Shown here piece by piece: positions 2,166-64,000 of a DNA stretch of 64,000 nucleotides. The position numbers were made by a program, and so were the translations under genes. The notes beneath the pieces are model-generated. The model did not search any database. It had not been told where the DNA came from and worked only from the letters and a program-made list of their open reading frames with translations. The first letter of the stretch is position 1; the number at the start of each line of letters is the position of its first letter. The stretch spans positions 62,001 through 126,000 of the forward strand of contig NMRA01000686.1 in the NCBI GenBank assembly GCA_002633005.1. The letters are read 5' to 3'. The stretch comes from Phoronis australis (Eukaryota > Animalia > Phoronida).

Positions 2166-2281
2166 GGAGTGATAGACGCTGCTTATAAGTTCTCAGTCGA
2201 GTACAAGAAAGCAAAGATGGCGAATAAGCTTCCATATGGGATGTCAGAAGGTGCATGGTCGTTAGTTAGAGCAAACTTCCG
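2092..2281 (+). pseudogene. Possible coding exon of an unidentified, probably decayed gene (VSSHMFQLFGEGSEFSIFDFVNNLKGVIDAAYKFSVEYKKAKMANKLPYGMSEGAWSLVRANFR)
   Basis: Open frame ending at a gtgag donor; ttttacag acceptor in the duplicate copy (~1360); compatible small exon 3215-3246 (IIAEQVLNGR|gtaag); neighbouring candidate exons contain stops; no family recognised. Confidence 0.3.
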
Positions 2282-8492: not shown

Positions 8493-9120
8493 GTGTTTTT
8501 CATAAAGGACAACGTTAAAGTTTGTAAGCCTGATGATTACCTTGATGTTATTATTTATTATCGGAATAGGAAGTCCTCCAACTTGGTCATGAAAAATAAC
8601 ATCTCTAAAGCGAAAGTCCGCCCCGTTGCACAGTGTAGTGTTGTTTATGAATTTGTATGCCCTGTGAACGAATGTCTTCGTTCAAACGTCAAACAATGTT
8701 ACATTGGTCAAACGGTTTGCAGTCTTTCCCGTCGGTCACCCATGCATCTTCAAAATGGCGCCATTCAAGATCATTTTCTGCAATACCACGCACGTAAAAT
8801 CACCCGTCAAGAAATTGTGGAAAACACGTCAATTCGCTACGTGGAGCAAGATGTGCTGCGTTTGAAAGTATTAGAGTCCCTTTTAATTGCTTTTGAGAAG
8901 CCTATTTTGAATGAGCAGCAAACAGGGTCGCGCCGCACGTTACACTTGTTTGCGTGACTTTCCTGTTACCCTAATTCTTTAGTCATTCTTTGCAGTATTT
9001 CACACCCGCCGTGTCTCACTGTGTGTGTCGTCAGCTTATACTCTGTGGTGGCATTACTGCGTCATTTTATCTTCACTTGAGAATGAAACAAGTATGTTTC
9101 GAAATATCGTGTGTCTTTTA
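8493..9120 (+). mobile_element. Penelope-like retroelement 3' fragment: GIY-YIG endonuclease plus 3' UTR
   Basis: ORF 8493-8957 has VVYEFVCP...CYIGQTVCSLSRR...HLQNGAIQDH...LKVLESLLIAFEKPILNEQ, typical of a Penelope GIY-YIG domain; RT absent. Confidence 0.85.
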
Positions 9121-19549: not shown

Positions 19550-20110
19550 AAGGCCGTCGTAGTGATTTGAGATCCTCCACCCCATATGCATTTCCTCCGT
19601 CGTTCAGTCAGGCAGTCAGAAGGTCTAGAGTCATGATGTGCCTCAACAACTGGAATTCTCTTCCAGTCTCTGTGAAATAAAGCAACTCTTTTACGAGTAT
19701 AAAAATAATTTTAGAACTGTTTTTCATAACACCCTTGACTAAATTCTTCCTCCCCAGCGATAACGAAATGGCATTGTACAGATCAAGATGTGGCCTTTTC
19801 CTCAACTCTGACAAGTTCAGGCACAACTTTAGTAATGTCTCTCCAAACTGTAAATGTGGTGACCATCAATCTTATCCTCATATTTTCTTCAAATGTCCCC
19901 TCATCGAATATCTGAGAGACTCAATCTTTCGTGCACTCAATGAAAACCAATCAATTGCTAACGCTCTCAGTTCTAGTAATAATATCCCTACTAGAGTTAA
20001 ATTATTACTGAATGGTAGTCCTAACCTTGACCTCGTTCTCAACGAATCCCTCCTAAGCAACGTCAGTAATTTTTTTAGTATCGTTTATCACTATTGTTGC
20101 GTCTGATTTC
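19550..20110 (+). mobile_element. Non-LTR retrotransposon (CR1/L2-group-like) ORF2 C-terminal fragment
   Basis: WNSLPVSVK motif followed by RCGLFLNSDKFRHNFSNVSPNCKCGDHQSYPHIFFKCP zinc knuckle; stops present. Confidence 0.75.
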
Positions 20111-25514: not shown

Positions 25515-26790
25515 TTGAAACTTAATTTTATTTGTTAAAACTTAAGTTTTAAACATGAAAAAACTTAAGTTTTCTGAAAAACTTAAGTTCTCTGAAAAAC
25601 TTAACCTCTAAAACTTAAGTTATTTTCCAAAAACTTAATTTTGTTCGCCAAAAACTTAAGTTTGCAGCGAAAAACTTAAGTTCATTTTTAAAAGGGCTCA
25701 CATACATGTACAGACATGCCGACATGGATTCATTCTGTGTGAGAAATTATCTAAACTTCTTAACGCGTAATATACTTCTGGAGGTCCATCAGAGGAAGCC
25801 ATAACGTTCACATGAGGCTAATACTCTATTAAAGTTATGTCCTCTGAGGTTGTGTCAGTGAGCATCAATGCAAGGGGGGACTACCAAGGCAAAGTGTAAT
25901 CATTTCCCAAGTTGGGAATATTGGCATTCGTTTTTTGTGCTTACGTCTATGTTCGTAGTAATTCTTGGAAGCTCCTGATTTTGAAATCTCATATCACTAC
26001 ATGTCAATAATTTGCAAGATTCACTTGCCTCATCCACGCACCCATCCTAAAATATGGGGGGTTCTCAAATTTTGGGCATGTTGACCTTTTACTAGGCTAT
26101 ACAACGTGCCCTAACCAAGCTGTCACTCTTAGACCTGGAGGCTCACACCATTATCTTTACCACCGATTCCATGGCAGTGTTGATGAAAGTTCAATCTGGA
26201 AACCTCCCAGGCAACAGGGGTGTCTTCCGATCACGCCACCCTCATCATGTAGTGATCTGGTCTTTCGTACCTGGCCACGCCGGTGTCTTGATTAATGAGC
26301 GTAAAGATTACCTCGCTGGCTCATGCACCACCAACCAACCCCTCTACTTATATTCAGCTGACGTTAATCTGCTGGCCCGCAAACGCAACCTCCAGCAGAC
26401 TGCATCCCAACTGGCTGAGTTCAATGATGGCAGCCGACTGCTCGAAGCCGGTATTATTTATGACCATGCTGCGAAGAGTCACAAGAAGAGCAGTGCCCGA
26501 GTGCTGTCAAATAAAATGCTTACAGGCAACGTCAGCCCTGGAGTTCTGCGCCCTGGAGTTCTGCCTGTCACGGGGATGTTCTGGGGAGGGGAATAATGCA
26601 CCAGCATATCCCCAATGATCCTGTCCGTGACAGGTATTACAGGTATTACAGGTATTACTAAAAAAACGGGATATGTTCAGAGCTGTGCACAGTGCATTCC
26701 TGAATTACAGCTTTTTAGTGGAATTGTGTCTCGTTTTCTCAGTTTTTTTGTTTCTATGAGGCTGAACTTTTCATGCCCACTATGGTGGAC
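25515..26790 (+). mobile_element. Foldback-like repeat with AAAACTTAAGTTTT arrays (homologous to 49645-50130), interrupted by a LINE fragment
   Basis: Palindromic 14-mer array at 25515-25690; 25715-26093 and 26658-26780 match the contiguous 49648-50130. Confidence 0.7.
26095..26657 (+). mobile_element. 5'-truncated RNase H-bearing non-LTR retrotransposon (I group, Ingi/Nimb-like) 3' end
   Basis: IIFTTDSMAVLMKVQSG...WSFVPGHAGVLINERKDYLA RNase H motifs; 3' stem-loop; (AGGTATTAC)3 tail; empty site at ~50025. Confidence 0.8.
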
Positions 26791-29700: not shown

Positions 29701-32481
29701 GACACCAGAAATGCATGTATTATTCATAAAAATATTGTTTTAGCTTCTTACATACCACGGAAAGGAATTAATTGCGGCGCAAATTGCACCACTCACAATT
29801 CGTAGCCCTTCGAGCGCCCCAGAAAAAATCTAAACCAAAAAAGTGGTTCATATGAAGTCATCGTGGCCACGAATTTACTGTGGAGCCACACTGCGTAACA
29901 GCTGAGTGCCATTTCTAGGACGTTCTGCATTTGTCGATCTCTGGGCTAAAATGCCTCTTTGCGTGGTGTAGCAATGTCAGAGGCAATGGGATACATTTGC
30001 ACAACTTTCCCACCGATCACGTTGTGTGCCGTGCGTGGAATAGATCCGTATCCTGGCTACAAAATTTCCCGATCGGCAAGATCTGATTTAGGCTTGGTGC
30101 AAAGCTGTATACAAAATCTACAGCTTCTCGTCTGTTTGGGTAAAAAGGACTAAATAAAATCTGACGCAGAAATAGTGTCATTAAAAGCTGCACCGCTCTT
30201 TGAGTAAACCAAATTATTTACCGGTGTTGGAAGAGTTATTGTTCTAGGCCTAGTACCTCTCATCTACTGTTAAAATTGAAGTGCGCTCTTGGGAGTAAGC
30301 GTTTGGCGATTACGTCACCTGACCTGAACAGTTCCCCCCCCCGGTTTATTCTTCTATCAACTGTTCTTTGCTGCCACGAGGTTGCGTACTGTCACAACGA
30401 ATTGTCGGAACTGGTCTCATTTCGTCACAAGTTATTAGCCTTTTTAAGACCAACACACCGAATTTAGAACAAACTTTACTGCTGTGAAGCTGCTATCATG
30501 TCCCAAAAGTAGTCGCAATATTTTAGCACGGCTTGCGCGTTTCACGAGCGTACTGTTTCAAAAAGACAACAGACTTTCTTTGTTAGAAAACTCAAAAGGC
30601 CGAGAGTAATGCTAGAGAATGATGTTTATTAGACTGTTCTTCCCATAAACGACTGGCATTGAACGGGCAAGATGAGTGTCCGTATTGTCTCCCAGATTTT
30701 GCATGCACCCCGGTGGTCCGTCGTTGGCTCTGCGATATATCTTTCACGACGAGTTGACTAACACAACTCATACCCGGTCTGTAGGTAGGCCCATGGAATT
30801 TTGTGATACACTACAATCTATGGTCTATGCTTTAACAGAGCTCAAGTCACAGTGTTACCTAGCTGTATTTTGGCGATAGCCTTCAAACAGCTAGCTGGTT
30901 GCCTACAAAAATGTCTGCACTGTGCACTTCGACGTTTCGTGACACTGTTCCGGCCCAGAGTATAGGGAATCCGGCCCAAATCCGGAATATTCGGTCTGAT
31001 TTGGGTCGTTCCCGTAGGAATTCTGATACTGAATTTAAAACGTTCAATTGATTACAAATTCTTATGACTGGGTGTGTTTTCATGCAATACAGACTTTATT
31101 TCGTAGTTTTAATTCATTACAGACACGCACAATATTGTGTTGCAATTAAATTTTCAATTTGTTTAGCATGACCTATTACGGGTTTTAGCATTTCAAGGCG
31201 ACTTATTTTGAAAATTGAGTTTCTAATATAAAATTTTCACTGAATTTGAATATAGTTGCATTGTACGAAAATATCATGCTGATATGTGCTGTAAGCCAAA
31301 CGTTTCTAAGTATTTTGGACCAAATTAAATGCCCTGTTGTCGTCTATACCCATGCGGGACACACACTGGACAGCCGTCCGTATTGGAATCGCGCAGCTTT
31401 CACACCTTCGGCTTCGAAAAGACATCAATGGAAAGTTACTAACATCAAAGTTTTTGTATCAAACAAATTACACTTTATAATAAACATTGGGACATTGCTG
31501 ATAACAATTCAGACGAAGCGTTTTGTTTTTCCGGCTGTTTCGACGGCACCAGTAACAGTCCCGGGGATTCGCATACGGGCCCGTATTAGAATATGTGCTA
31601 AATAATTGCCGAGAATAAAAATTCTAAAGGCAGTGATTTTGATTAATTTTAATATTAACTGACTTGAAATGAAAAATTAACGTTTTTCCTTGATTTTCCA
31701 CGTATTTTGCACTAAAAAATATGTCATCTCCGATTCCAATGCTCTGGAGACACGGTGAAAGCCAAATTCGTTGCAATGATGTCATAGACTTCGATTAGTG
31801 CAAGCGCAATCTCATTTTTTGCGCTAAATGGGGTTCGTGATGAGGCTACTGTATTGTCGAAGGCCTAATTAATTAACGACTGGGGTATGCTATGACACAG
31901 TATTTTGATGTTTTCTTATCAATAAATGTATTTTAGATGTAAAAATAGTCATTTGGCACCATACTTGGCCTTTAAATGAGCACGCGCAACAATCGAATGT
32001 TCCGCAAAGGGCATTGCACCGACATTTACACGCTATGAAAAATAAGACGCATAATTTCCATAAAAGCAATATTTTAATTCAGTGAAATTTTTCTCTCGTG
32101 TTCTCTCACTTGTAAATCACTGATCTCCAAATTGAATGCAGGTGTCCTGAGGTCGGGATCCTTTGAATTGAGCATTATAGTCAGTTACTAGTGGTAACCT
32201 ATTTAGCAGACGATATTTTCCCGTTTTAAGCTTGGCGTGATAAAATGTGTAGTAAGCTATAATAGTTGCTAAACCTTAATTTATAGATTCACTTCATTTC
32301 TATTTTGTCTAAATTTTCAATTGGTTTTGAGTATAAGCATTATTTGACAAAAATAGCTCGGCTTAAAAGGTCACGACCTCCGACCCCGTGCCTATGACTT
32401 AGAAAGTAGTTACAAAGCCGACGTGAGTCGAGAAAGGTGATTCGATTCATTGCAATGTTTCTCGTTTAGTATGTTGTATAA

Positions 32482-32646
32482 ATAGATTACTACATGTTCT
32501 CAGTCGTTATCCCCCGTTATCTAGAGCCCTCGTGGATGTTGTAGAATTATCACCCTCGGGGCTAACGCCCCTCGAGGGATAATTCTCCAAAATCCACTCG
32601 GGCTTTAGATAACGGGGGATAACGACTTCGCCATGTAATAATCTAT
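32482..32646. repeat. ~165-bp near-perfect palindrome, palindromic MITE (second copy ~34174-34337)
   Basis: atagattactacatg...gtcgttatcccccgttatctagagccc / gggctttagataacgggggataacgac...catgtaataatctat. Confidence 0.85.
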
Positions 32647-33207
32647 GTTTATCCCAACGGCATGTCGTAGTTATTACCACTAACCCTTGGTTTAAACATA
32701 ATTTGCTGCAATTGACGGGGAATTGGTATTTTGTCTGATCATTATAATTGCCTAATGTAATATATCACAGAGTGCCTAAAATGCAGATTTAAGGCCGGAA
32801 AATCGCAACGAAACAGTCATGACTGAAATTGGGCAGATAGAAAAAAATGAGTTGTTAAATAAATCCACTGTATTACTGAGATACTTTAGTATTCAGCTAC
32901 CATATAACACCAGCAGCCATTAAAATATGACTGGAGTATTCATCACATGATTATCTTGATAAGTGTATATTCAATACAGACTGCTACGAAGATCTTTTAA
33001 GGCTTTACAGCAGCTATACAAGGTATCACAAAATGTTCAAATTCAAAATCTGAAATAAAAATAACAATACACGGTTTTGCTGGGCATGCGTGCTTTAACA
33101 GTGACAAGATTTGAGATTTCCAGAGATTGTTTGGTGAGGGTCATGCCAGCATCTAATTCTGCTGAGGTGGTTAAGGTTGCTGGCCTAATGTGTCTGCACT
33201 TAGCTCA

Positions 33208-33519
33208 CTACTTGGGCCGTCCTCCGGGGAAGATATCTTGACACAAGTTGGCGTCTTGCTGATAAATAAAATCATAGATGCACTCTACTCTGACTCCTTG
33301 CTCAACGGTATCCAGATGGAATTGACCTGGTGGCAACACTATATTATGTCCACTCGTGTGCATGACAGCCAAACACGCCTCCTGTTGGTCGTCAGCTACA
33401 AACCCTGGGCTTCCTGAGCTGCCGGGTCCGAACCTTGAGCTAGATTGGTAAAGCACTCGACGTCTGTCAGCTAATGTGTTGTACGTTTCGTTGTTAGATT
33501 GCGTGTATAGTTGAAGAAG
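33208..33519 (-). CDS. Duplicate terminal exon of the ankyrin/FAM111-like protease gene (catalytic Ser, GSSGSP)
   Basis: Intact acceptor ttgcag and open frame LLQLYTQ...FGPGSSGSPGF...AVMHTSG...EQGV...FPGGRPK*. Confidence 0.65.
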   Translation of the reverse strand, partial: LLQLYTQSNNETYNTLADRRRVLYQSSSRFGPGSSGSPGFVADDQQEACLAVMHTSGHNIVLPPGQFHLDTVEQGVRVECIYDFIYQQDANLCQDIFPGGRPK

Positions 33520-33687
33520 CTGCAATTGTAATAAACTGAATCAAAAAAAACGGTGTCTTATACGAATGAATAGTGACTGCCACACATCATTGCCACGTTT
33601 TGAACACACTAGCTCATGCACTGATATATACGCTGTACCCGTCTCGTGTCGAACTTTTCTTCAGCCTACGTACTGGTATGAAAACTG

Positions 33688-34088
33688 GGCCGTGTCTCTA
33701 AGCTTTGTACTCGAAACGAACTCGAAACTATTTTTGGCAATTTCTCTCCTCCTTTTGTGCGAACTTAAGATAATTGGTTATCAGACTGTGCTCGAATACA
33801 TTATAGTTTATGCATAGGAGTTTCTAGTTCAAGTTTCCCCTTAAAGACCCTTATATTCGTGCTACAAACTCGAGTAAAAACTTGAAATTTCGAGTTCCAA
33901 CTCAAACTTATTGCTTTAATATTGGGTTTAAAAACTGTGAACTAAGGGCAATAAATTATCTACGTAAGTTATTGTGTACTCGAGCATAGAATAATAGACA
34001 CTTATCTTGAGTTCGCCCAAAAGTAGAGTAGAAAATGCCAAACCTAATTTCGAGTTCCATTTCGAGTAAAAAGATTGGAGACCGGGCC
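33688..34088. mobile_element. PIF/Harbinger-type MITE, 401 bp, CTG target-site duplication
   Basis: Imperfect TIRs ggccgtgtctctaagctttgtactcgaaa / tttcgagtaaaaagattggagaccgggcc; ctg on both sides; empty site gaaaactggtctc at ~35370. Confidence 0.85.
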
Positions 34089-34904
34089 CTGNAGAAAGTA
34101 GTTACAAAGCCGACGTGAGTCGAGAAAGGTGATTCGATTCATTGCAATGTTTCTCGTTTAGTATGTTGTATAAATAGATTACTACATGTTCTCAGTCGTT
34201 ACCCCCCTTATCTAGAGCCCTCGTGGATGTTGTAGAATTATCACCCTCGGGGCTAACGCCCCTCGGGCCGTAATTCTCCAAAATCCACTCGGGCTTTAGA
34301 TAACGGGGGATAACGACTTCGCCATGTAATAATCTATGTTTATCCCAACGGCATGTCGTAGTTATTACCACTAACCCTTGGTTTAAACATAATTTGCTGC
34401 AACTGACGGGGAATTGGTATTTTGTCTGATCATTATAATTGCCTAATGTAATATATCACAGAGTGTCTGAAATGCAGATTTAAGGCCGGAAAATCGCAAC
34501 GAAACAGTCATGACTGAAATTGGGCAGATAGAAAAAAAAATGAGTTGTTAAATAAATCCACTGTATTACTGAAATACTTTAGTATTCAGCTACCATATAA
34601 CACCAGCAGCCATTAAAATATGACTGGAGTATTGATCACATGATTATCTTGACAAGTGTATATTAATTACAGACTGCTACGAAGATCTTTTAAGGCTTTG
34701 CAGCAGCTATACAAGGTATCACAAAATGTTCAAATTCAAAATCTGAAATAAAAATAACAATAAACGGTTTTGCTGGACATGCGTGCTTTAACAGTGACAA
34801 GATTTAAGATTTCCAGAGATTGTGTTGTGAGGGTCATGCCAGCATCTAATTCTGCTGAGGTGGTTAAGGTTGCTGGCCTAATATTGTGTCTGCACTTAGC
34901 TCGA

Positions 34905-35216
34905 CTACTTGGGGCGTCCTCCGGGGAAGATACGGTGACACAAGTTGGCGTCTTGCTGATAAATAAAATCATAGATGCACTCTACTCTCACTCCTTGCTC
35001 AACGGTATCCAGATGGAATTGACCTGGTGGCAACACTATATTATGTCCGCTCGTGTGCATGACAGCCAAACACGCCTCCTGTTGGTCGTCAGCTACAAAC
35101 CCTGGGCTTCCTGAGCTGCCGGGTCCGAACCTTGAACTGGATTGGTAAAGCACTCGACGTCTGTCAGCTAATGTCTTGTACGTTTCGTTGTTAGAATGTG
35201 TGTATAGTTGAAGAAG
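34905..35216 (-). CDS. Terminal exon of the ankyrin/FAM111-like serine protease (catalytic Ser)
   Basis: Phase-0 acceptor matches the phase-0 donor at 36503; RRVLYQSSSRFGPGSSGSPGF...AVMHTSG...VEQGV matches the FAM111/Trypsin_2 C-terminal barrel. Confidence 0.9.
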   Translation of the reverse strand, partial: LLQLYTHSNNETYKTLADRRRVLYQSSSRFGPGSSGSPGFVADDQQEACLAVMHTSGHNIVLPPGQFHLDTVEQGVRVECIYDFIYQQDANLCHRIFPGGRPK

Positions 35217-36502
35217 CTGCAATTGTAATAAACTGAATCAAAAAAACGGTGTCTTATACGAATGACTGCCACCCATCCATTGCCACGTTTTGAACACACT
35301 AGCTCATGCACTGATATATACGCTGTACCCGTCTCGTGTCAAACTTTTCTTAAACCTACTTACTGGCATGAAAACTGGTCTCAAATGGATTCCAACTCAA
35401 ATTTGATGTGATTTTGTACTTATATAAGTTAATTATTTAAAGTCGCTTCCAAAGCGCAAATCACTTGAATTTGAGCTTAGCCAGTACACAGCACTTATCG
35501 ATACAACTGGACTTATACCTCACATAAAATGGGCAGTCCTGTCAAGTCAACGTATTGTGAGATTAGGGATTTTTTTTAGAAAATTAACTTAGCCAAGTCG
35601 AAAGTTAAATTTCAGTCAATTTTAACATCAAACAAAAAAATTTCTAAAGTTTGTTTCACTGAAGAAAGACATCGTAAGTTTGTAAGATTTTGTCTTAATT
35701 TCGACTAACTTACCGGATGTAGAAGTCCCGAAATTGAAAAAAATCTTAGACTTAAGGCAGAAAGGAGCTTGGGTCGTTTACGTGGAAGGGGGCCGTGTGG
35801 CTGGTTGCATGAAACAGTATGAATTAGGGACTCAACTAAGGTCCCTAAATCTTTTTGCGTATTTGTGTCTTTATGGATAATATAACTAAAAAACTGAGCC
35901 CAGAGTCTATTGAAAATAAATAGGGACTCGGCCATTTACTTTGAGGTGTTGTGTGAAAAGATCCCCAATTATTTTTGATATTGACAATTCAGCGTAGAGT
36001 TCACTCTGGATTAACAGCAAAAGTTGACTTAGTAATGAAACTTAAACAATTTAAGAAAAAGTAATCGGTATTTTCACAAGAACAACATTACTCAGTATAT
36101 TTAGGGAGCATATTTGAGTCCCCATTTGGGACTTTCAAGCTACAAGGTGTTGGTCTCTAACATGCTCAGTTCTTTCTGAGAACGGAACAGTGTGAGAGGT
36201 AATAACCGGATGAACTCGATATTTACAGTTCATCATAGAAACTTTATACAGGGTTTTGTTTTGTAAAAATTAGAAAAGTTTACTGCCCTGTCGCCATCAC
36301 CCGTGTGGAATCCAAATACGAGTAAGATGTTTTTGTCAGATCGAAACACTTCAGTTAATTCTAAAAGCGCCGAGTCGTGCAGCAAACTAGCGGTGTCCAA
36401 CATAACTGTATGCGGAGTATTAAGTATTCAATCCCACAATGCATGTGAAAACGAGTGCAACACATTTTGTTTGACCAAGCAATAGAGTCACGCCACTTGT
36501 AC

Positions 36503-36828
36503 CTTTGCTCTATGCATGTCGGATAAGTGCTCAATTTTACATTGAGTATCCAAAACCTTCTCTTGACCGTCAGGATGGCCCGCAAAGTGCAGGTATTCCT
36601 GTCCCACGATAACTTTAAAACTAGTCAGTGCTGTCGGCAGCGAATGCTTGTTTAGCCTCTGACACTGATTGAAGGCTGCCGGAAGTGCAGCGTTGAAATC
36701 TAGATCCACGATAGCCACGTCGAGGTCATCGTCACAAGCTAAGACTGAGAGGATGGGCGCTGCTTGGACTGAGCTCATACATTGCATTAATGCCTTGTTA
36801 AAGTGAAAGAGAACAGCGTTGCTTCCGA
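36503..36828 (-). CDS. Protease exon with catalytic Asp (DDDLDVAIVDL) and GHPDGQEKVLDTQC
   Basis: ctctctgtttcag acceptor, gtacaa donor; LDxA and GHPxGxxKxxDxC motifs characteristic of FAM111-type proteases. Confidence 0.9.
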
Positions 36829-41287: not shown

Positions 41288-41518
41288 GCGGATCACTGAG
41301 TGCTTTTACAATGTGGCAATTCGTCATGACGTAAGTTGGACCAACGCGGAACCCAGATCCCCATCCATATCCATCCGACCTTGCAAGTAGAACGACAGAC
41401 GGGAGCGCACGTGCTAAAGACTCGTGTAAGTGCGCCAACATCACCTTCTTATTAACATCATGGAACAGTGTGGTTGAGGCTGTGGGCAGCAATGGCGCCT
41501 GTACGAGTGGAATGTAAT
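41288..41518 (-). CDS. Protease exon with catalytic His (LFHDVNKK...SVVLL...GWGSGFRVGPTYVMTNCHIV)
   Basis: tttttcag acceptor, gtaagt donor; GSGFRVG...MTNxHV trypsin-like motif; phase 1/1. Confidence 0.9.
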
Positions 41519-41655: not shown

Positions 41656-41938
41656 CGGACAGCCTTGTATTCACACCCAATATGTCCAATAGGCCGTCGT
41701 TTCTCCGATTTACTTTCAGGTTGACGTCTGCTTCTCCGTCGGGGATAAATTTGCCTTTAGATTTGGTAAATTCTTCGAGTACTGCACCAAATTGCTCCTC
41801 AACCGGAGGAGCACTCGCTCCTAAAGTTTGGTCAGATGCACGTTCAATTGCTCCTCCGGCCCCACGCAATCGAATTTCAATTGCATGCTCGTGCTTTTTT
41901 TCCATTTTCCTTATATCTCGTTGAAGTTCCATTTGTTT
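41656..41938 (-). CDS. Linker/coiled-coil exon between ankyrins and protease (KQMELQRDIRKMEKKHEH...)
   Basis: cattttcag acceptor phase 0, gtaaat donor phase 1, open frame continuous with flanking exons. Confidence 0.85.
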
Positions 41939-42343: not shown

Positions 42344-42427
42344 CTTAAGGATAGTCTTCGTTCTCTTGACCTCATCTTTGCCAGCAAGGGAGGCTGTTCC
42401 GCAAACGTCCAGCGCAGTTTTATTGTC
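42344..42427 (-). CDS. Terminal ankyrin capping exon (DNKTALDVCGTASLAGKDEVKRTKTILK)
   Basis: tatttcacag acceptor, gtactc donor, 84 nt phase 0/0; KTALD ankyrin-end motif. Confidence 0.85.
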
Positions 42428-51484: not shown

Positions 51485-54353
51485 TTAATTACTCTGCGCC
51501 TGTAAGCGCAGAGTACTGTTGTTCCTGGTTTTTCTTCAATTTTATTCTTCTTATTCTTATTACTCTGTGCGTGTAAGCGCAGAGTACTGCTGTGCCTGGG
51601 TTTTCTTCAATTTTATTCTTATTCTTATTCTTATTCTTATTCTTCTTCCGACCAACTTTGAGGCTTAATAACTCCAAATTGGGTGCAGATACGGTCTTTA
51701 AGTTCAGCATATGACTTTTGACAGTATATAGATTTTGATTAGTTAGATAATCATATTCCATATTGAACCGGAAGAGATCGTTTGGTGCAAAGGTCGTATA
51801 ATTTTCAAAATGCTACTTCCCCTTTAGTTTTAAAGCTATCTTTTTCAAATTCAATGCACAGGTATAATTCAGCATGACAATTCAAAAAATTACTTTTCTA
51901 GGTAATCGGGTCATCCAATCAGGTGAAATAGATCAAAGGTCACTAGGTGCAAACTGAAATTTTGAGCTAGACACTTCAAATTGACAGGTCTGATTACCAC
52001 AGATAAATCAAATCGGAATCCAGTTTCAGGTCATCGAGTGCAAACATGGGGTCATTAGGTGCATTTTTCTTTTGAAAATTTGACCTTTTCAATCAGCAAG
52101 TATTCTGATGTGTCAACCGTTGGACAACTGTGATTCTCTGCGTTGAACACATTTTCCATGGGATTTGCAATAATTCTCCTAAAGAGGCTTAAAATGCACC
52201 GGATAAGGACAATTAGTGCAAAGGTCATGTAACGTTCAAAATGTTATATCTCTCACGTTTTTCAAGGAATTCTTTTCAATTTCAGCACACTGGTGTAAGT
52301 CAACATGCCAATTAAATACCCTACTTTACTTTGCAATAGGCTTAACCAATCAGAAAAATAGGTCAAAGGTCATAGAGTGCAAACAAACATTTTGAGCTAG
52401 AGACTTCAGAATTACGTATCTGTTTACTAAGTGCGATTGAGTATAAATTCATAATTTTCACGTCATTTGTTGCACCCATGGGGTCATTAGGTGCATATTT
52501 CTTCTGAAAGTTTGACCACTTCATTCATCTTGTATTCTGAAGTGCTTAAAGTAAAATAGCTGTGATTATTAGCCTTAACCACACTTTTAATCGAATTAAC
52601 AATTACTCGCTCATCGGGGCTCACAATGCACCGGAAGTGGTCAATTACTGGAAAGGTCATCAAAAAATTAATATGTAATTTTTCCTACAATTTTAAAGAA
52701 TCCCTTTTCATATTGGTGAACGGGTTGCTGTCAGTAACTTCCCATAATAATTCCAGTAATACGCACGCGCAGAGTCCATTATTGTCACGCCGTGACAATA
52801 ATCTTTCTAGTTCTTATTCTTCTTCCGACCAGCTTTGACACTTAATAACTCCAAAATGGTTGCAGGTATGTTCTTCAAATTTAACATATGATTTCAGGCA
52901 GTATATAAATGTTTATTCGTTATATATTCATATCCAATAATGCACCGGAAAGGTCATTTGTTGCAAACGTCATGTAATTTTCAAAATGCTACTTCTTTAT
53001 TTCAAAAGCTATTCTTTTCAAATTCGGTACTCAGGTAGAAGTCAATCATGCAAATTTAGAAATTCCTTTTCTAAGTAATCGGTTCATCCAATCAGGTTAA
53101 ATATGTCAAAGGTCATAAGGTGCAAACTGAAATTTTGAGCTAGACACTTCAAATTCACAGGTCTGATTGGCACAGAAAATCCAATTCGGAATGCGAAATT
53201 TCAGGTCATTTAGTGCAAAAATGGGGACATTAGGTGCATTTTTCTTCTGAAAATTTGACCTTTTCAATCAGCAAGTATTCTGATGTGTTTACCGTTAGAC
53301 AAATGTCATTCTCAGCATTAAACACATTTTTCATGGGCTTTGCAATAATGCTCCTGAAGACGCTTATAAAGTACCGGATAGGGTCAGTTTGTGCAAAGGT
53401 CATGTAACGTTCAAAATGTTATATCTCATACATTTTTCAAGGAATTCTTTTCAAATTCAACACACTGGTGTAAGTCACCAGGCCAATTGGATACCCTTCT
53501 TTACTTCGCAATAGGCCTAAACAATCAGAAAAAAATAGGTCACTGGTCATTGAGTGCAAACTAAAATTTTGAGCTAGAGACTTCCAAATTACATATCTGT
53601 TTACTAAGTGCGATTGAGTTTGAATTCTAAATTTTCAGGTCATGTGGTGTACCCAGGGGGTCATTTGGTGCATGTTTCTTTTGAAAATTTGACCAATTCA
53701 TACGTCTTTTATTCTGAAGTGCTTAAAGTAAAATATCTGTGATTCTTATCATTAAACACACTTTAAACCGAGTTTACAATTATTCTCTCGTCGGGGTTCA
53801 TAATGCACCGGAAGAAGTCAATTAGTGGAAAGGTCATCAAAATATTAACATCTAATTTCTCTTACATTTTTTAAGAATTCCTTTTCATATTGGTAAACGG
53901 GTTGCTGTCAGTAACTTCCCTAAACAATTTCAGTAATACGCACGCGCAGTATATAAATTTTGATTGCTTATATAATCATATTCCATATTACACCGGAAGA
54001 GATCGTTTGGTGGAAAGGTCATATAATATTCAAAATGCTACTCCTCCTTCAGTTTTAAAGCTAACTTTTTCAAATTCGGTGCACAGGTACAAATCAAAAT
54101 GACAATTTAAAAAATTACTTTTCTAAGTAATCGAGTCATCCAATTTCTCCTACAATTTTAAATAATTCCTTTTCATATTGGTAAACGGGTTGCTGTGGGT
54201 AACTTCCCATAATAATTCCAGTAATACACAGGCGCAGAATCCGTTATTGTCACGCCGTGACAATAATCTTTCTAGTTATTCTTATTCTTCTGATTCTTAT
54301 TCTTCTTCCGACCAAATTTGAGGCTTAATAACTCCAAATTGAGTGCAGGTACG
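51485..54353 (+). mobile_element. Tandem array of a non-autonomous Helentron (HINE/DINE-1-like) element
   Basis: 5' hairpin tactctgcgc-ctgtaa-gcgcagagta, (ttattc)n microsatellite, internal aaaggtcat-rich subrepeats, 3' subTIR gcgcagagt + palindrome attattgtcacg-c-cgtgacaataat + ctagtt; unit ~1.17 kb. Confidence 0.85.
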
Positions 54354-54354
54354 G

Positions 54355-55027
54355 ACGCAGTTTAGTTTTAGAGAGAAAATGGACTATTTTCAATATTCAG
54401 TTTTACTAAGACACAGGATCAAACCTAGCAAGGGCGTATCCAGGATTTTTTAAAGAAGGGGTAGGCGGTCAAGGACTTTTTGAAAGGCGGACCAAGTCAA
54501 CAATTTGAAAAAGATAGATTTGATATCACTAAGATCAAGGGAAAAAGGGAGCTCCGGACCTCGTGACCCCCCTGGATCCGCCTACGCGTAGACCAGTACG
54601 TGCTGGAGTGTGTCTGGCGAGTTTCTCAGAATACAACTGCTCGAGCAGGGCTCATTGTCGCAAGCGCTACGGATTTGACTTAAGAAAGCATCCTCTGATT
54701 CTTCTGACTGACTTCCACCTCCACTGTTCTCCAATTAAATGTTGCCGGGAAGGGGCCTTGCCCCCCATGGTCGCGTAAAATAAACACTAAAATGACACGG
54801 AAATAAATTTGGGCATTTATCATGTTACATCTAATCGTGAGCATGTTCTTAAATTACATTTTTCCTCATGAGAAAAAGCTTTTAGACCTTTGTCCTAAAT
54901 GTCTACACTCATTCTACTGGCGTATGCCATTGTATACCCACGTGTTCAAGGTTCCATTGAAGCACTCCAACAGCCGATTTCATACCTGAATATTGGAAAT
55001 AGTCCATTTTCGCTCTAAAACTGCGTC
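54355..55027. mobile_element. TIR element containing a nested ggcgtatcc/ggatccgcc MITE
   Basis: gacgcag...ttttagagagaaaatggactattttcaatattcag inverted against ctgaatattggaaatagtccattttcgctctaaaactgcgtc. Confidence 0.6.
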
Positions 55028-56507: not shown

Positions 56508-56609
56508 CTTGTTTACGGCGGTTACGTCACAGCTGTCTTCCATGGACAGAAGCTCCACTATCTCTGCATGTCCACCTGCTGATGCCTTGTGCAGCGGTGT
56601 CGCTCCCGA
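56508..56609 (-). CDS. Ankyrin-repeat exon (SGATPLHKASAGGHAEIVELLSMEDSCDVTAVNK)
   Basis: 102 nt, phase 0/0, cttacttcag acceptor, gtatc donor; GxTPLHxAxxxGHxxIVxLL consensus. Confidence 0.92.
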
Positions 56610-57870
56610 CTGAAGTAAGAGAGCAAAAATGAGAGAATGTTGGTCAGAATTATACACAGTGACAGGGTGTCAAGTTATATAATTATCCAGTAAAGAACTT
56701 CACCATCAGTTCCATACTTAAGAAATGGGTGGCTCAAAAGAAGTCGACTAAAACTTGACATTTTAAAACTCAGTCAAAACGTGAGCAAGATTTCTTAAAT
56801 GTTCTTGAGATATGTTGTAGTCACGTGATTAAAAATATTTTAAACATGATAACTTGATATTCTAAAATGATTACAACAGCGAGAGCGACATTTATTTAGT
56901 GAGTGATGTGGAAATCCAAGTAAAGAAGTAACCCATTGTACAACTCCGTGTGACTTAAAAAACTATTTCTAGGTATTAAAGTCGCGTCCACGTCACGTCT
57001 TTGCACGTCACGTCACGCACAGAGGAAAGCAAGAGAAAATATAAACGCTTACAACGAAATCATAAATGCTAATTAATTAATTAAATCGCCCAGCGATTGA
57101 TCTTAGACATGTCTTGTGTGCTCATCATCGTTGTTCTAATAACTAGTTCAACCATAGACTATAGTACATGCACAGCCAACTACGTAAATTTTCAATGTGC
57201 GACATATGTCATCTTATGTACGCTTCTTGCAAAGTCTCTTCTATACTGAATATTGATCCTATAAAAACATGATGGATACACGGAATTCCATGTGTGGGCA
57301 TTAATGCGTATGACTGGTCGAAAGTATACCTGTCACTTTGCAACCACTTGCACTGGACTTAGGCCCGGGTTCGAGGCTCCCTTGATTTTGTTCACTTCGA
57401 TAACTGAATGTTTTAAAAATTGTAACTATTCAAGTTAGAGGTGGTAGCCATACTACGTGACTGTGAACTGAAATGGGTTTCCAACATTTCAAACAATGGG
57501 AATGACTGAATGTTATAACGTCAGTTTCGTTACTTTAACCAGTGAGAAGCCATGATGAACAACGTATTAAGTTTACATAGTCCACGGGATTTTTCATTTT
57601 AAGCTTGAGTGCACGCTTGCGCAGCTTAAACTTTATGGAGTCTTAGTCCATGAAAATACCATCAACTGCATGTAGTGCCAAAATGATTTTTGTTGTAGTA
57701 GACAGTAAAATAATGCAAGAATTCCACGTCACAATACACTAACCATAAGCTGAGATGTTACGTTTAGAGAGTGGCACCTCCTCTTGGATAATGACCAAAA
57801 AATGTCAGAGTTGCAAATCTGTTGTCTATCATCTATAATTCAATAAAACGACATGTTTGCCATTAATTAC

Positions 57871-57969
57871 CTCCGCACGAACATTTACGTTGGCCCCGTG
57901 ATGAAGCAGTCGCTGTATCACTTGTGTATGACCCCGCTCTGCTGCCCTGTGTAGCGGTGTCTTGCCACA
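57871..57969 (-). CDS. Ankyrin-repeat exon (CGKTPLHRAAERGHTQVIQRLLHHGANVNVRAE)
   Basis: 99 nt, phase 0/0, tag acceptor, gtaatt donor; not in the ORF track, read from the sequence. Confidence 0.9.
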
Positions 57970-58153
57970 CTACATGTACATGTATGTAATATATAACGGA
58001 TATTTGTGAATGAACGATCAACGATTAGTGAAAATCAACATCCACGGACACAGTGAACTTGTAAGGTGGCGATTAAAAGCAGACGGTCATCAATTCGTTC
58101 TAACGAATTGACCTGTACAGGTAACTCGCACTGCATTGTCTCTACCAGCCTAC

Positions 58154-61100
58154 TAGGCCATGGGCCGTAGGCCACAGGAGGCCTAGAAAACCACTTCTGT
58201 GACGATTTTAGGGGGGCAATTTAATTCAGGTGTTTTTGATGTCACAAATCATTGTACTTTATGAATCAAAAAAGTTCCCAAGTTTAAACTTGCACATTTT
58301 TGTGAAACTTGGTGTTAAAATTGTGCCCATTCAGCAACTGTTACATGGAATTAAAAAACATTAGAAAAGAAGACAATTAAGTGTCCATAAAGGATGATAC
58401 TGCAGATAATATTCCTTCAGGCTGTATTAAGTCATAATAAACACAAACTTTGATATATTTTTCAATTAAAACGTAGAAGTATGGAAGAAATATGAATTTA
58501 TGGGTGCTACCTGGTGGTGAAATATGGAACTATCATTCATATTATTTTATGCTGTTTTTACCGTTGGTACAAAAACAATCACTGCTACAGGTTCAAAGCA
58601 TACAATTGTTCAAAAAACGACGACAAAAGTGTAGAATAGCAACAAATACAATTGGACGAAGTACAAAATGCCGAGAAATTAACAAGGTAAAAAGCCATTA
58701 CTCGAGAAGTAAATATGAAAATAAAAAATGTTTTACAAATCACCAGGCTCACTGGACCAGTTACTAGCCTGGTTTCTGTCTCTTGATGAGATGTCTATCC
58801 AATTTCCTCCGTCTGGGATGCGTCTGGGGTCCATCACACTGTTACTCATCACCTGACTCAATTTCATCACTAACGTTGACATTCCCACAGTTTTGGCACT
58901 TGCACATTTCAGTACATTTTAGTCCAGCATTTACAGAAGATCAAATGTTTGTTTAACAACAATTCACTCTGATTCAGTTTTGAACTAAGGAATTATAGAA
59001 TAGGGTAAATTCTCTGTAATTTCAATTTCGGATTTCTAGTTCGGACACATACATTACAACCACACTTGGATAAAAATTCCTCAAGGAGTGACTTTAACAG
59101 AGTCAAATGCAATACTTCCCCATGCGAGCTTGTTCGTTGCTACACAACTTCAAAGCAAAACTCTTGAAGTACATCTGTGAAAATTTCACTATCGTTAGAT
59201 TTCTGTTTTGTCAGTAGTCTTGTGAAGCTTTTGTAGCAAAAACGATGGATTTGACTTCGAGTGCAACCAGATCACTTCCCTGTACTCTGGTCAAAAGGTC
59301 CATGCCATTTCCAGTCATAGCAGCATCCAAAAACAACCCACCTACAACCAAGCAAATTAAAAATAAAAACGGTTGTCGGAGTTTAAAAATATGGAACGCA
59401 TTGTAGGCCTGTCCTACAAAATGATATATGCTATCATGTACTCAATTCTTTATTACAAGAACTGAATGGAAGTAAAATAATAATCAAAACACAGATAGTA
59501 AACACTCAAAATAAGACATGCATAAAGACGGCCTAGTGTTTTGTGCTCAAAAGTGAAAAAGATATCCATGAGCTTGTATGCAAAATGGTCTTGAAAACAA
59601 TTTTTTATTTGAAAGTTTACATAAAATATCAAATATGCACACAAGTCTTTACAAACATGCAAGTATTCTATATTGTACTTTCACTCAAATAAGTTTTGTT
59701 ATTTCAAAAAACACATAAAAGTAGAACTTTTGAAGATAGTGTTCCAACAACACTGTACAAAATTACTTTGAAAGCAAACGAAAAAAACTATGTTGAATGA
59801 GTAAAAACTCAATAAAAATGACTGTTCTCAAAATATTTGCTATGTGCTTTGTTATTCTTCAACCATATGTGTGAAGCTGCACCTACATCTGAAATTCAGG
59901 CACCTATTCACCTTTTAGCAAAACCTGAGAGTAAAAGTAGCTTGAAAATGTTAAAGGTGGTGCTCCAGATATACAATGTAGGTGCACTCTGTAGTCAATA
60001 ATTACATTATAGTAGAACTAGTGTAACTAAAACGACGAGCGTAGGTGGCAAAATATATTAAAATATCGCCACGTTTTGAGCAATGCGCTCTTTGTCAAGG
60101 GTGTGCTATGGACTACTTTATATTTTTATTCTTGTGTAACCACACGGCATACCAACATCTGTTTGATTTCAATAATGATGTTGATGACCAATCACCTGGG
60201 TCCAGTGCGTAATCTCCAAACTCAGACTCAAAGCCTAACTATCCACAGTGTACAATTCAAGTGAATTTACTAGAATTTTGGCATGCAATTGGTCAGTTTT
60301 CGAACTGAGCTTTGAGTATGGAGATTACCTCTCCTCCGGCTCCTGGATATTACAAAAAGTATAATTTTGATAGACATCTTGCACCATGCCCAGAGTTATG
60401 GTTACTGAAAAAATAACAATGTACACTGAAGAAAATGGTCATCTTTTTATTGGATTGTGTGCCTACGTGCATTTGAATGCCATATCACACGGGCCGATTA
60501 TTCAGTAAATTACTGTATATGGATGATCGATCCAAACACAAGCAGGCCAGACACATATTCCAGGGAACACAGTCTTTTTACGAGTTCCGCATATGAGGGT
60601 TTTCCAGTCAGTTTGTACCTTTGCCAACTCGCACCCTAGTCGAACCATACACGTGCTAAAAACATTACTAATAAATTTTCATTTTCATTCACTAAATAAA
60701 GGGTAAAAGTGAGTCGTTTTGCATAAATATGGCACGATTGATCGATGTTTGCCAAATTACAAAGTTTTGAAATACGTTTGAATTTTGACATGGGTACGTG
60801 TTGATTTTGGTATAAAATGACCTGTTTCCTGCTGAGGCTCTGAATCAGTGACTTGCATCAATTTATCATACTCCCACAACAAATTAACACTCACCATCAT
60901 CTTGGTCGTTATCATGGGGTTCTATTCTTGGAATACTTTATAGTTTCGAAATATTTTCTCTTTGCTCTTTCAATCTTTGCAACACCAGTACGCTTGTATA
61001 ACAAGATTTGTGAGACTACTGCCTGAAACCCACGGCCACGCCAATCCCTGAAGTTACTTGATGCAAACGCCAACTGGTGACACACATTGTGCTCATTGCT

Positions 61101-61509
61101 GTCTTCATCTCCAAGGGAAAGTCATTCTTTCACACAATCAATGCTCTTTGTCCATGTCACTTTCGAGAAACTCAGCAAATCAGATGAATTTCGTGCTTGA
61201 AAGTGTACGCAGCAATGATTGACAGCATCTCTAAAGGAGCCGCCATGTTAGATTAGGTCTGCAATTACTCAATTTCTGAGCTTGTGATTGGCTAAAATGT
61301 CATCTGGTGCTAGTCTTTTGTTGGACTTAGCGCTACCTCTTGTTCAATAACGTAACATTTGGACTGACAACAAAAATGTGTAACTTAAAACGTGGGAACT
61401 TTTCAGGTATCAATTGCTTAATGGTATATCTAGCCATACAGAAAAAAATCAAGTTGCCACCCTAAAATGGTCACATGATGAAATGACTGGAGCTAAGGCC
61501 CATGGCCTA
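58154..61509 (-). mobile_element. AcademX-type DNA transposon, internally deleted and decayed
   Basis: Termini TAGGCCATGGGCC...GGCCCATGGCCTA with longer imperfect TIR; 3-bp TSD TAC; remnants DLVALEVK/HRFCYKSF (~59220-59300, frameshifted) and C-terminal GLKCTEMCKCQNCGN Cys cluster (~58880-58930). Confidence 0.85.
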
Positions 61510-61677
61510 TACGCAGTTTCGACAGTTATCAAAAAGAAAAGCAGACTACATTTAATTTAACACTTTTATGGACACATTAGATTGTGAAAAACATCAACAA
61601 AATTTGTTTCCAATAAGTTGTAGTCATCGTTCTTTAAGCAACTAGTTCAACAAAACAACCTCCGTGTCATTAATTAC

Positions 61678-61776
61678 CTTATCAGTGACATTCACACTGG
61701 CCTTGTTGGCCAGTAGTAACTCCGCTATCCCTGTATGACCGAACTGTGCTGCCCTGTGCAGCGGTGTGCAGTCCAG
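61678..61776 (-). CDS. Ankyrin-repeat exon (LDCTPLHRAAQFGHTGIAELLLANKASVNVTDK)
   Basis: 99 nt, phase 0/0, catag acceptor, gtaatt donor. Confidence 0.9.
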
Positions 61777-62134
61777 CTATGTGATACATAATAGAGATAT
61801 GTTAATGGACGATCAACGTTGAGAGCAAATTAACATCCACGGGGAAAGTGACCTTCTCCCAAGGTCGCGTCAAAAAGCAGGGGACCTTTTTTGTTCAAAC
61901 AAATTAGGAACAGTTTAATTAACTTGCATTTTAATTCACATGTACAGGTGAGTAACACTGCCTCCGAGTCTATGGCGCTTTGGAGATTATCGAACGGAAA
62001 GCAGATGACAATCAATTTGACATTACTTAGGGACACTAGATTGTGGAAAATATCAACAGAAATGGTTCCACATCAGTTTAGTCATTGTAAACACCTAGTT
62101 CAATCAAACAATCTGTATGTCATTAATTACGTAC

Positions 62135-62232
62135 GTTATCATGGACATCAATTGTGGCCTTGTTGGCCACTAACAGCTCCACTATCTGTGAATGACCACC
62201 CTCTACCGCCCAGTGCAGCGGTGTCTGCCCCC
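62135..62232 (-). CDS. Ankyrin-repeat exon (GQTPLHWAVEGGHSQIVELLVANKATIDVHDN), 98 nt, one base short of phase 0/0
   Basis: catag acceptor followed by a G-run; gtacgt donor; full ankyrin consensus. Confidence 0.75.
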
Positions 62233-64000
62233 CTATGTAATACATAATAGAGATGTTTGAATGGACGATCAACGTTGAATGCAAATTACATGTAACATAC
62301 ACGGAGGAAAGTGAACTTGTACGGTGATAATCAAAAGCAGACGGTATTCAATTTGCTTTAACGAATTCAGGACACTTTAGTGGGCTAAAACATCATTTCA
62401 CCAGTTCAGGTAAGTCACACCGTATTGTTTATCCAAATCTAGGCAGCTTTGGAAGTTATTGAGGCGAAAGCAGACGACATTTAATTTGGCAATATTTAGG
62501 GTCATTGAATTATGAAAAATATCAACAAAATCTGAGCTATGTCCCAATAAAACATGGATGTCTTCAAACTAGGTGTACACCTTACTTGGATGACAACCAA
62601 CAAGTTGAGAAGCAAACGCCACCTTTAGGTATCCATTTATATTTAAACAATCAGCTAAATTGGTTGCTCCATCGGGAGGGGAAAACAGTGATGAGTCGTG
62701 AAAAAGTTAGTGGCGTTATGAAACCAGAAGCTGTTCAACCTGTTGGATAAATTTCACACCCAAAGGGTGAATAAGATGGTTGTAAAAAGTTAATACATCT
62801 GGCGATGAAAATAAAGCCAAGGATGAAACACAGGCATGAGTTTGGTGGTACATGTAGTCATAGACTATAGTACATGGACCGCCAACTCTGTATACTGTGC
62901 TTTCAGTGGACGAAATCTGTGCCGTTTTGTACAAGCCCCGTTACGTCATTATTCACTAACGTCACGTGGCCAAATTATCTAGTGTAATTACCGGCACGTA
63001 CGTCGTCTGCTAATCATAGTCAGTCGTTATGGGACGGTTTGGAAATCCAGTTTTACATTTTATGAACTTTACCGTAGTTGGCTACAGAATGACCCTATTT
63101 TATAAAAACTAGCAACGCCGACAAACGTCTACACAAATTGCACCATGTGCAGCTCCTGGTTTAAACAAGGGCCTTTTTAAAGTTTGATCAGGTATAAATA
63201 ACGCCACAGACGTGGAAGTTCACCGAAATACTTCTACCTCACACATGTGAAATTCCCCCGTCTCCGAAAACTTGAGAACCCGACAAAAATAATAATGATG
63301 AAATACCGGTGATGATAATCTTACACTTTGTTAATTTACTTCACCTACACAATTAGGAATATACGCTAAAAATAAACTCATTCGAGTAAGAGCCACGTGA
63401 GTCCCTAGGCCAACCCCAATATGGTAGAACCAAGAAGTGTAGTAGTATAGGGGAGTTCACTTGTGAGTTCTCTGTTACCGCAAATACTAGCGCCACCAAG
63501 TGGTGAACAAGATTTCCTAAGGATCCAGAAAGGTAAGGATTATCTGTTATTCAATAATATGATACATTGCCTTTCATTTTGTGTGTTCTGCGCACGGCTG
63601 TTAGACAAGTCGATCGCAGTCCCGTTGCCACTGTTGTCTGCAGTGTAGGCTAGGCCTACTGTACAGCCGGGCTGCCGTTGAGACCTACATGATTAACCTA
63701 CGATGTGATCTTCAGTTTTTTGGATACTTACAATCAATGAATGCCAAATCAAAATGTCACAAGAACGATTGCCAGACGATTGTTTCTGGGTTTGTTTAAA
63801 AGGTAGCTAGAATGTATGCTTTGAGATTGTGCGTAGATGGAGAGTGAATGATCAAATCCAGTAATTAATTTATTATATGATAACCCCTAATTAGACAAAT
63901 GAAACCTACTGTTAATTAAGTAATCAACTACAAAGAGTAACTACGCTAGCGCCCTCTTAAAGATTACTTTAATCAAACAACCAAAACAATCTAATGTCTT

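What the first reader, a model, noticed from the sequence alone, without database searches (positions are those of the whole stretch)
57800..62530. Ankyrin exons sit in recently duplicated ~450-bp exon+intron cassettes that differ at binding-surface positions
The intron sequence around three ankyrin exons is homologous: cattaattac at the donor, then gatcaacg...cacgg...gtga(a/c)ctt...aaaagcag...caggt, and att(g/a)tg(a/g)aaaa(c/t)atcaaca at ~61580, ~62040 and ~62510. Whole cassettes were therefore duplicated in tandem. Framework residues are kept while the residues before T, after TPLH and before GH vary (CGK/R/ER, LDC/R/QF, xGQ/W/EG; SGA/K/AG in the older exon). These are the positions known to form the ankyrin binding face and randomised in DARPins. 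Phase-0 single-repeat exons could be skipped or change copy number without frameshift. Inference: a modular, diversifiable recognition domain driving a protease.
Basis: partly seen in the sequence, partly recalled or inferred. Interest (0 to 1): 0.75.

Follow-up and report, generated by a model that had tools for sequence, protein, structure and literature searches.

The report
Duplicated ankyrin exon cassettes before protease
An animal gene carries three old tandem copies of a 460-base unit that each encode one ankyrin repeat, ahead of a predicted protein-cutting domain; it belongs to an expressed family whose repeats vary at the likely binding loop, but one copy here is a base short and selection on the binding face is only weakly supported.

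Summary
The cassettes are real. With a 3,356-bp transposon removed, three ~460-bp exon+intron units lie in tandem. They are not recent: introns differ at 27-33% of sites. Exons B and C (and older D) are phase-0; exon A is 98 nt, one base short of expressed relatives, so it is a likely dead exon, a phase-1 first repeat, or uses a second acceptor. Variation is not confined to the binding face (23 of 33 positions vary). DARPin-type sites beat the intron baseline (8/10 vs 110/275, p=0.014) but not third positions (p=0.13) or other non-motif codons (p=0.14). B to the last exon reads as an open 511-aa ankyrin-linker-trypsin-like protease model; none of its splice joints was seen in reads. RNA of three other samples shows an expressed family of look-alike exons with seven different hairpin junctions on a constant frame, three with an extra residue; nearly all reads on A come from relatives. 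Skipping and copy-number change were not shown. The scan already reported a similar ankyrin-cassette/protease gene on another piece of this genome. It works like fungal NLR ankyrin arrays and brown-algal one-repeat exon shuffling.

The parts
62135..62232 (-). Ankyrin exon A, 98 nt from the homologous acceptor (1 nt short); donor GTACGT made by a 4-nt duplication; second AG 8 nt inside gives a 90-nt in-frame exon
   Evidence: identical in DNA contigs of X1 and X2
62062..62530 (-). Cassette unit A (approximate ends)
61678..61776 (-). Ankyrin exon B, 99 nt, phase 0-0
61600..62061 (-). Cassette unit B (approximate ends)
58154..61509 (.). Degenerate DNA transposon inserted in the intron of cassette C: 3,356 bp, terminal inverted repeats starting TAGGCC, 3-bp target duplication TAC; Academ-like by recall
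   Evidence: joined empty-site forms in reads and a contig
57836..58153 (-). Cassette unit C, part right of the exon up to the transposon; it continues at about 61513-61600
57871..57969 (-). Ankyrin exon C, 99 nt, phase 0-0
56508..56609 (-). Ankyrin exon D, 102 nt, phase 0-0, older, flanks not homologous to the cassette; close relatives expressed
42344..42427 (-). Predicted capping half-repeat exon, 84 nt, phase 0-0
   Evidence: sequence, frame check; no family hit
41656..41938 (-). Predicted linker exon, 283 nt
   Evidence: no relatives found
41288..41518 (-). Protease exon with the catalytic-His motif (TNCH)
   Evidence: Trypsin_2 E 0.007, below cut-off; MarP family E 0.0014, below cut-off
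36503..36828 (-). Protease exon with the predicted catalytic Asp (DVAI) and a GHPDG motif
   Evidence: no family hit
34905..35216 (-). Last exon with the predicted catalytic Ser (GSSGSP) and stop
33208..33519 (-). Second copy of the last exon (11 of 312 nt differ), across a single N at 34092; likely the other haplotype assembled in tandem

Best explanation
Three ~460-bp exon+intron units, each holding one ankyrin repeat, were duplicated in tandem long ago in a gene predicted to join an ankyrin array to a trypsin-like serine protease, and the gene is likely one member of a fast-turning-over family of intracellular sensor-proteases. Shown: the units, their age relative to the locus, the phases, the transposon insertion, the one-base loss in exon A, and many expressed look-alike exons. 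Inferred: units are gained and lost by unequal crossing-over between the homologous introns; because the intron falls at the tip of the ankyrin beta-hairpin, each hairpin is built from the end of one exon and the start of the next, so a new neighbour, a splice-site shift or a small indel at the junction makes a new binding loop without touching the scaffold. Exon A is likely a decaying unit. The array would bind a target (likely a foreign or damage-linked protein) and bring the protease to it or switch it on; this last step is untested.
For: Tandem homology and clean transposon removal. Open 511-aa model from B to the stop, canonical AG/GT at every joint, His-Asp-Ser motifs in order. TPLH-A-GH first and second codon positions invariant, 0/14 against 110/275 intron columns, p=0.001, so the exons were under selection as protein. 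DARPin-type sites 8/10 variable, p=0.014 against intron. RNA from three other samples lies on all four exons from the gene's strand. Seven listed read junctions give seven hairpins (DR|QRGN, SK|SGN, DR|VRGN, DD|VFGQ, DG|DGQ, DE|EGQ, DE|GGQ); the two codons before the variable stretch are identical in 6 of 6 readable junctions while position 2 has 5 residues in 7. All three local junction anomalies sit at exon ends: the lost base in A, the 4-nt duplication at A's donor, the 12-nt extension at C's acceptor. Summed DNA contig depth is 26 on the locus's own contig but 813-1,039 over the core of exon A and up to 13,429 over an intron segment: many look-alikes, though not a copy number.
Against: The surface excess fails against third positions (8/10 vs 17/32, p=0.13), other exposed sites (9/16, p=0.21) and random non-motif codons (p=0.14); the A-C pair alone is not significant (5/12, p=0.28). 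Only three sequences are compared and the intron baseline drops gapped columns. At 62205/62207 only 1-2 of 169, 1 of 140 and 0 of 296 first-mate-plus reads carry the window's letter, so expression of this locus's exon A is not shown. No joint between this locus's own exons is listed. No relative of any protease or linker exon was found, so the protease call rests on motifs and two sub-threshold hits. The 5' end of the gene was not found in 62530-64000.
Confidence: 0.55

Rival explanations
1. Ordinary ankyrin repeat turnover: the units duplicated by chance, the fold keeps TPLH and GH, and every exposed position, the binding face included, drifts at about the neutral rate. No diversifying selection is needed.
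For: 23 of 33 positions vary; overall dN/dS is 0.4-1.0 per pair; surface sites are not significantly above third positions or other exposed codons. Repeat expansion by identity-dependent duplication is general in ankyrin proteins (PMC7314423, passages).
Against: Excess over intron divergence (p=0.014; p=0.01 without the sites next to splice junctions); hairpin diversity on an identical codon frame in expressed relatives.
Confidence: 0.27
2. This copy is a decaying or truncated paralogue: exon A is frameshifted and the expressed family members lie elsewhere.
For: Exon A is one base short; a transposon sits in one intron; nearly all reads on A, and on the listed sites of B, differ from the window; no upstream exon found.
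Against: B to the stop is intact over 511 codons; reads on D differ by few letters (cleanest reads 0-2 other differences) and only window-identical D contigs are listed in X1, which fits alleles of an expressed locus; A can be skipped, read from a phase-1 intron or from its second AG.
Confidence: 0.12
3. One reading: one gene makes many binders by skipping or choosing cassettes at splicing.
For: B, C and D are symmetric phase-0 exons; reads join a B-like exon end directly to a D-like exon start (14 reads, X6, loose-end consensus, agreement 0.82).
Against: Those reads differ from the window on both sides, so a relative or another allele explains them; no skip joint between window exons is listed; three cassettes give few combinations.
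Confidence: 0.06

Closest known systems
Fungal NLR ankyrin arrays, e.g. Podospora Pa_3_8560 (PMC4986451, passages read)
   Same: Ankyrin array coupled to an effector domain; variable and positively selected sites on the inner helix and hairpin; repeat number differs between strains there.
   Different: Those repeats are over 85% identical in protein and sit with a NACHT domain; here they are 41-53% identical, each has its own exon and intron, and no NOD domain is in the modelled part.
Brown-algal ROCO and NB-ARC-TPR one-repeat exon shuffling (PMC3341825, abstract and section 15; PMC11378527, abstract)
   Same: One repeat per exon, tandem exon duplication with flanking intron, inactivated repeat exons inside the array, diversifying surface residues.
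   Different: LRR or TPR rather than ankyrin; GTPase or NB-ARC rather than a protease; shuffling and alternative splicing were shown there and are not shown here.
FAM111A-like Trypsin_2 proteases (PMC9798293, passages)
   Same: C-terminal Trypsin_2-type domain with His-Asp-Ser order; soft-coral and lancelet members also lack the UBL domains.
   Different: That review has no mention of ankyrin in its main text; no sequence match to FAM111 was obtained here, so the likeness is by recalled motif only.
DARPins (PDB chains aligned)
   Same: Same 33-residue frame; the DARPin chains shown vary before T, before GH and before the last D, as these exons do.
   Different: Engineered, fixed scaffold; here the scaffold positions vary too.

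Membership tests
Ankyrin repeat (PF00023) | Score above the Pfam cut-off | tested here: met
   31-43 bits against 21.1 for all four exons
Symmetric one-repeat exon array | Each exon is one repeat, phase 0 at both ends | tested here: not met
   Met for B, C, D; exon A is 98 nt with a phase-1 start at the homologous acceptor
Trypsin_2 serine protease (PF13365) | Family score and His-Asp-Ser triad | tested here: inconclusive
   Motifs in order in an open frame; single exon scores 17.5 bits against 27.6; the spliced domain was not scanned
FAM111 family | Sequence relationship to FAM111A/B protease domains | tested here: inconclusive
   No FAM111 chain among hits to E 10 for three single exons; no relatives; single-exon queries are weak
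FAM111 family | UBL domains and PIP box (vertebrate and mammalian members) | not tested
   Absent from invertebrate members per PMC9798293; the gene's 5' end was not found
Fungal NLR with highly conserved repeats | Over 85% identity over 100 aa among repeats | tested here: not met
   17/32, 13/32, 16/33 identical residues
Fungal NLR with highly conserved repeats | NACHT or NB-ARC domain | tested here: inconclusive
   None in the modelled exons or the 22 frames scanned; the 5' end is missing
Fungal NLR with highly conserved repeats | Positive selection on the concave face | tested here: inconclusive
   p=0.014 against intron, 0.13-0.21 against other baselines
Fungal NLR with highly conserved repeats | Repeat-number polymorphism between individuals | not testable with these tools
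   The only DNA runs listed are one sample
Brown-algal exon-shuffled receptors | Inactivated repeat exons within the array | tested here: inconclusive
   Exon A is a candidate; two in-frame uses remain possible
Brown-algal exon-shuffled receptors | Alternative splicing or recombination of repeat exons | tested here: inconclusive
   No skip joint between window exons listed; different exon neighbours seen in reads of relatives or alleles
Academ DNA transposon | Terminal inverted repeats starting TAG, 3-4 bp target duplication, Academ transposase (features recalled) | tested here: inconclusive
   Inverted repeats and 3-bp duplication seen; coding part degenerate, no family hit

The most novel reading that the evidence does not exclude
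An animal keeps a genome-wide pool of tens to hundreds of one-repeat ankyrin cassettes with shared introns, swaps them between genes and haplotypes, and builds each binding hairpin at the exon-exon junction, giving a germline repertoire of natural DARPin-like sensors wired to a protease effector.
Probability: 0.3. Interest if true: 0.8.

Novelty: new variant of a known kind. Interest (0 to 1): 0.48.

Why it matters
If the family-level picture holds, an invertebrate uses exon-sized ankyrin modules, as brown algae use LRR exons and fungi use repeat arrays, to vary an intracellular recognition surface attached directly to a protease. That would add an animal case of repeat-exon immune diversification and give a natural library of ankyrin binders. 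This locus alone is the weaker example: old, partly decayed, with marginal statistics. Its value is as a dated record of how the units are born (tandem duplication), interrupted (transposon) and lost (one-base loss at the hairpin junction). I found no paper on ankyrin-exon cassettes joined to such a protease in five searches of the open library (listings only); supplements were not read and subscription papers are not covered.

Tried and rejected
No whole genome is held, so paralogues could not be fetched. Protein searches with single exons found no relatives: two spurious repeat proteins for the Asp exon, none for the Ser, His and linker exons among longer proteins, none in metagenome contigs; these are weak negatives. 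PDB sequence search gave only faint trypsin-like hits for the His exon (E 0.7-0.9) and nothing useful for the others. The atlas gave no answer. The run search listed no RNA holder; RNA runs came by species label. Rejected: that exon A's short G run is an error of the window (contigs agree, though they are likely the window's source sample, so not independent); that D belongs to the cassette; that more ankyrin exons hide in the window; that the two last exons are alternative ends (a single N lies between them and a second such pair flanks the N at 1435). Summed contig depth was not taken as a copy number. Read tables show only the best-supported rows (one search hides 21 joints, 17 between-letter rows and 760 loose ends; one search hides 11 and 117), so the seven junctions are those listed, not all. 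No fold or complex was predicted: only single exons could be sent.

Full report
Anatomy. The window is animal DNA of about 39% GC. Four ankyrin exons lie on the minus strand: A 62135-62232, B 61678-61776, C 57871-57969, D 56508-56609 (Pfam). A profile built from them finds no other in the window. Downstream, a cap exon, a linker exon and three protease exons splice in frame: B to the stop gives 511 residues with no internal stop, canonical AG/GT ends, and TNCH, DVAI, GHPDG and GSSGSP motifs in trypsin order. The His exon has sub-threshold hits to Trypsin_2 and MarP proteases. This model is from sequence; no read lay covered the D-to-cap intron of 14 kb. No upstream exon is evident in 62530-64000.

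The cassettes. An insertion at 58154-61509 has inverted ends and a 3-bp target duplication. Without it, three units of about 460 bp lie head to tail (67% over 919 columns). Gap-free intron sites differ at 27.5%, 30% and 33%; exons differ at 27%, 39% and 38.5%. The two copies of the last exon, probably two haplotypes on either side of an N, differ at 11 of 312 sites. So the units are about eight times older than that split and 'recent' does not fit. D's flanks are unrelated.

Phase. B, C and D are phase 0 at both ends. A has five G after the homologous AG, so it is 98 nt and stops at codon 10 if entered in phase 0. DNA contigs of 1,171 nt from X1 and X2 match with no gap; these runs are one sample and likely the window's source. 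Relatives have the extra base: 50 of 114 X7 reads, 5 of 75 in X6 and 1 of 66 in X5 show it, and a spliced X7 junction enters the G run in frame. A is therefore a likely decaying exon, unless it follows a phase-1 intron or uses the AG 8 nt inside (90 nt, in frame, three hairpin residues lost).

Selection. Among A, B and C, 23 of 33 positions vary. In one three-way test, first and second codon positions vary at 0 of 14 motif sites, 13 of 36 core sites, 9 of 16 other exposed sites and 8 of 10 DARPin-type sites; third positions vary at 17 of 32 and intron columns at 110 of 275. Motif conservation is clear (p=0.001). The surface excess is p=0.014 against introns, but 0.13 against third positions, 0.21 against other exposed sites and 0.14 against random non-motif codons. 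Pairwise, A-B and B-C are significant and A-C is not, so B carries most of the signal. DARPin numbering is recalled; the DARPin chains vary at the same places.

Reads. About a fifth of each of three RNA runs from other samples with the same species label was laid. Reads fall on all four exons from the gene's strand. On A nearly all come from relatives: 1-2 of 169, 1 of 140 and 0 of 296 carry the window letter at 62205/62207. On D, reads are close to the window but all change position 17, and 12 of 16, 12 of 19 and 10 of 10 change the first base of the position-10 codon (codons read). Seven listed exon-exon junctions translate to seven hairpins, three with an extra residue, while the two codons before them are identical in the six that show them. 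In X6, 14 reads join a B-like end to a D-like start that reads SGDTPLHVAS by consensus (translated by hand), against SGATPLHKAS in the window. These data show family or allele diversity at the hairpin and different exon neighbours, but cannot separate alleles from paralogues and show no skipping at this locus. Summed contig depth in X2 is 26 on the locus's contig, 813-1,039 on A's core, 2,243-3,044 at B's donor and up to 13,429 on the intron just before A. That suggests tens to hundreds of look-alikes; the tool warns it is no copy number, and the intron piece could be a separate repeat.

Mechanism. The intron sits between repeat positions 2 and 3, the tip of the beta-hairpin, so each hairpin is coded by two exons (shown by the codon table). 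Unequal crossing-over between homologous introns would add or remove whole repeats in frame, and a new neighbour or a junction indel would change the loop (inferred). All three local oddities of the cassettes are at exon ends. A binding array on a protease suggests a sensor or targeting module; human FAM111A degrades a viral protein (PMC13245274, passages), which makes defence a reasonable guess, not a result.

What is known. Fungal NLR ankyrin arrays show repeat-number polymorphism and positive selection on the inner helix and hairpin (PMC4986451, passages). [quoted passage not shown] Invertebrate FAM111-like proteases without UBL domains are known, with no mention of ankyrin (PMC9798293, passages). 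This gene works like the first two and is a member of neither; FAM111 membership is unsettled. An earlier unchecked note of this scan describes near-identical ankyrin cassettes on a FAM111-like protease on another piece of the same genome; I could not see its sequence, but my reads independently show a family.

Verdict. A real, older and partly decayed member of a variable ankyrin-protease family. Observation partly confirmed, interpretation partly supported, new variant of a known kind, interest 0.48.

Noticed in passing
window 32401-33688 vs 34093-35378: The last protease exon and its flanks are present twice (96% identical) on either side of a single N at 34092; 1084-1434 and 1817-2166 (98%) flank the N at 1435 in the same way. 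Likely haplotypes assembled in tandem.
   Followed up: partly
window 61791-61859 and 62228-62290: RNA reads on the gene's strand cover cassette intron sequence (depth up to 94 in X7) and differ from the window: retained introns or cassette relics in transcripts of relatives.
   Followed up: no
window 58143 joined to 62012: 3, 4 and 14 RNA reads from the opposite strand join cassette intron across the transposon site with other letters between: a transposon-free cassette copy is transcribed antisense somewhere.
   Followed up: no
window 62228-62273: A short intron segment has summed DNA depth about 190 to 510 times that of the locus's own contig; it may be the most conserved part of a large cassette family or a separate repeat.
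   Followed up: no
window 51600-54350, 95-690, 1467-1815: A repeat family with internal units of about 430 and 1,175 bp fills part of the 14-kb intron and recurs at the window's start.
   Followed up: no
window 8493-8954 +, 26096-26593 +, 19681-20103 +: Retroelement remnants: weak GIY-YIG and RNase H hits; the third frame has no hit and is judged by eye.
   Followed up: no
window 54364-55022: Element with 37-nt inverted ends, 585 nt apart, MITE-like.
   Followed up: no
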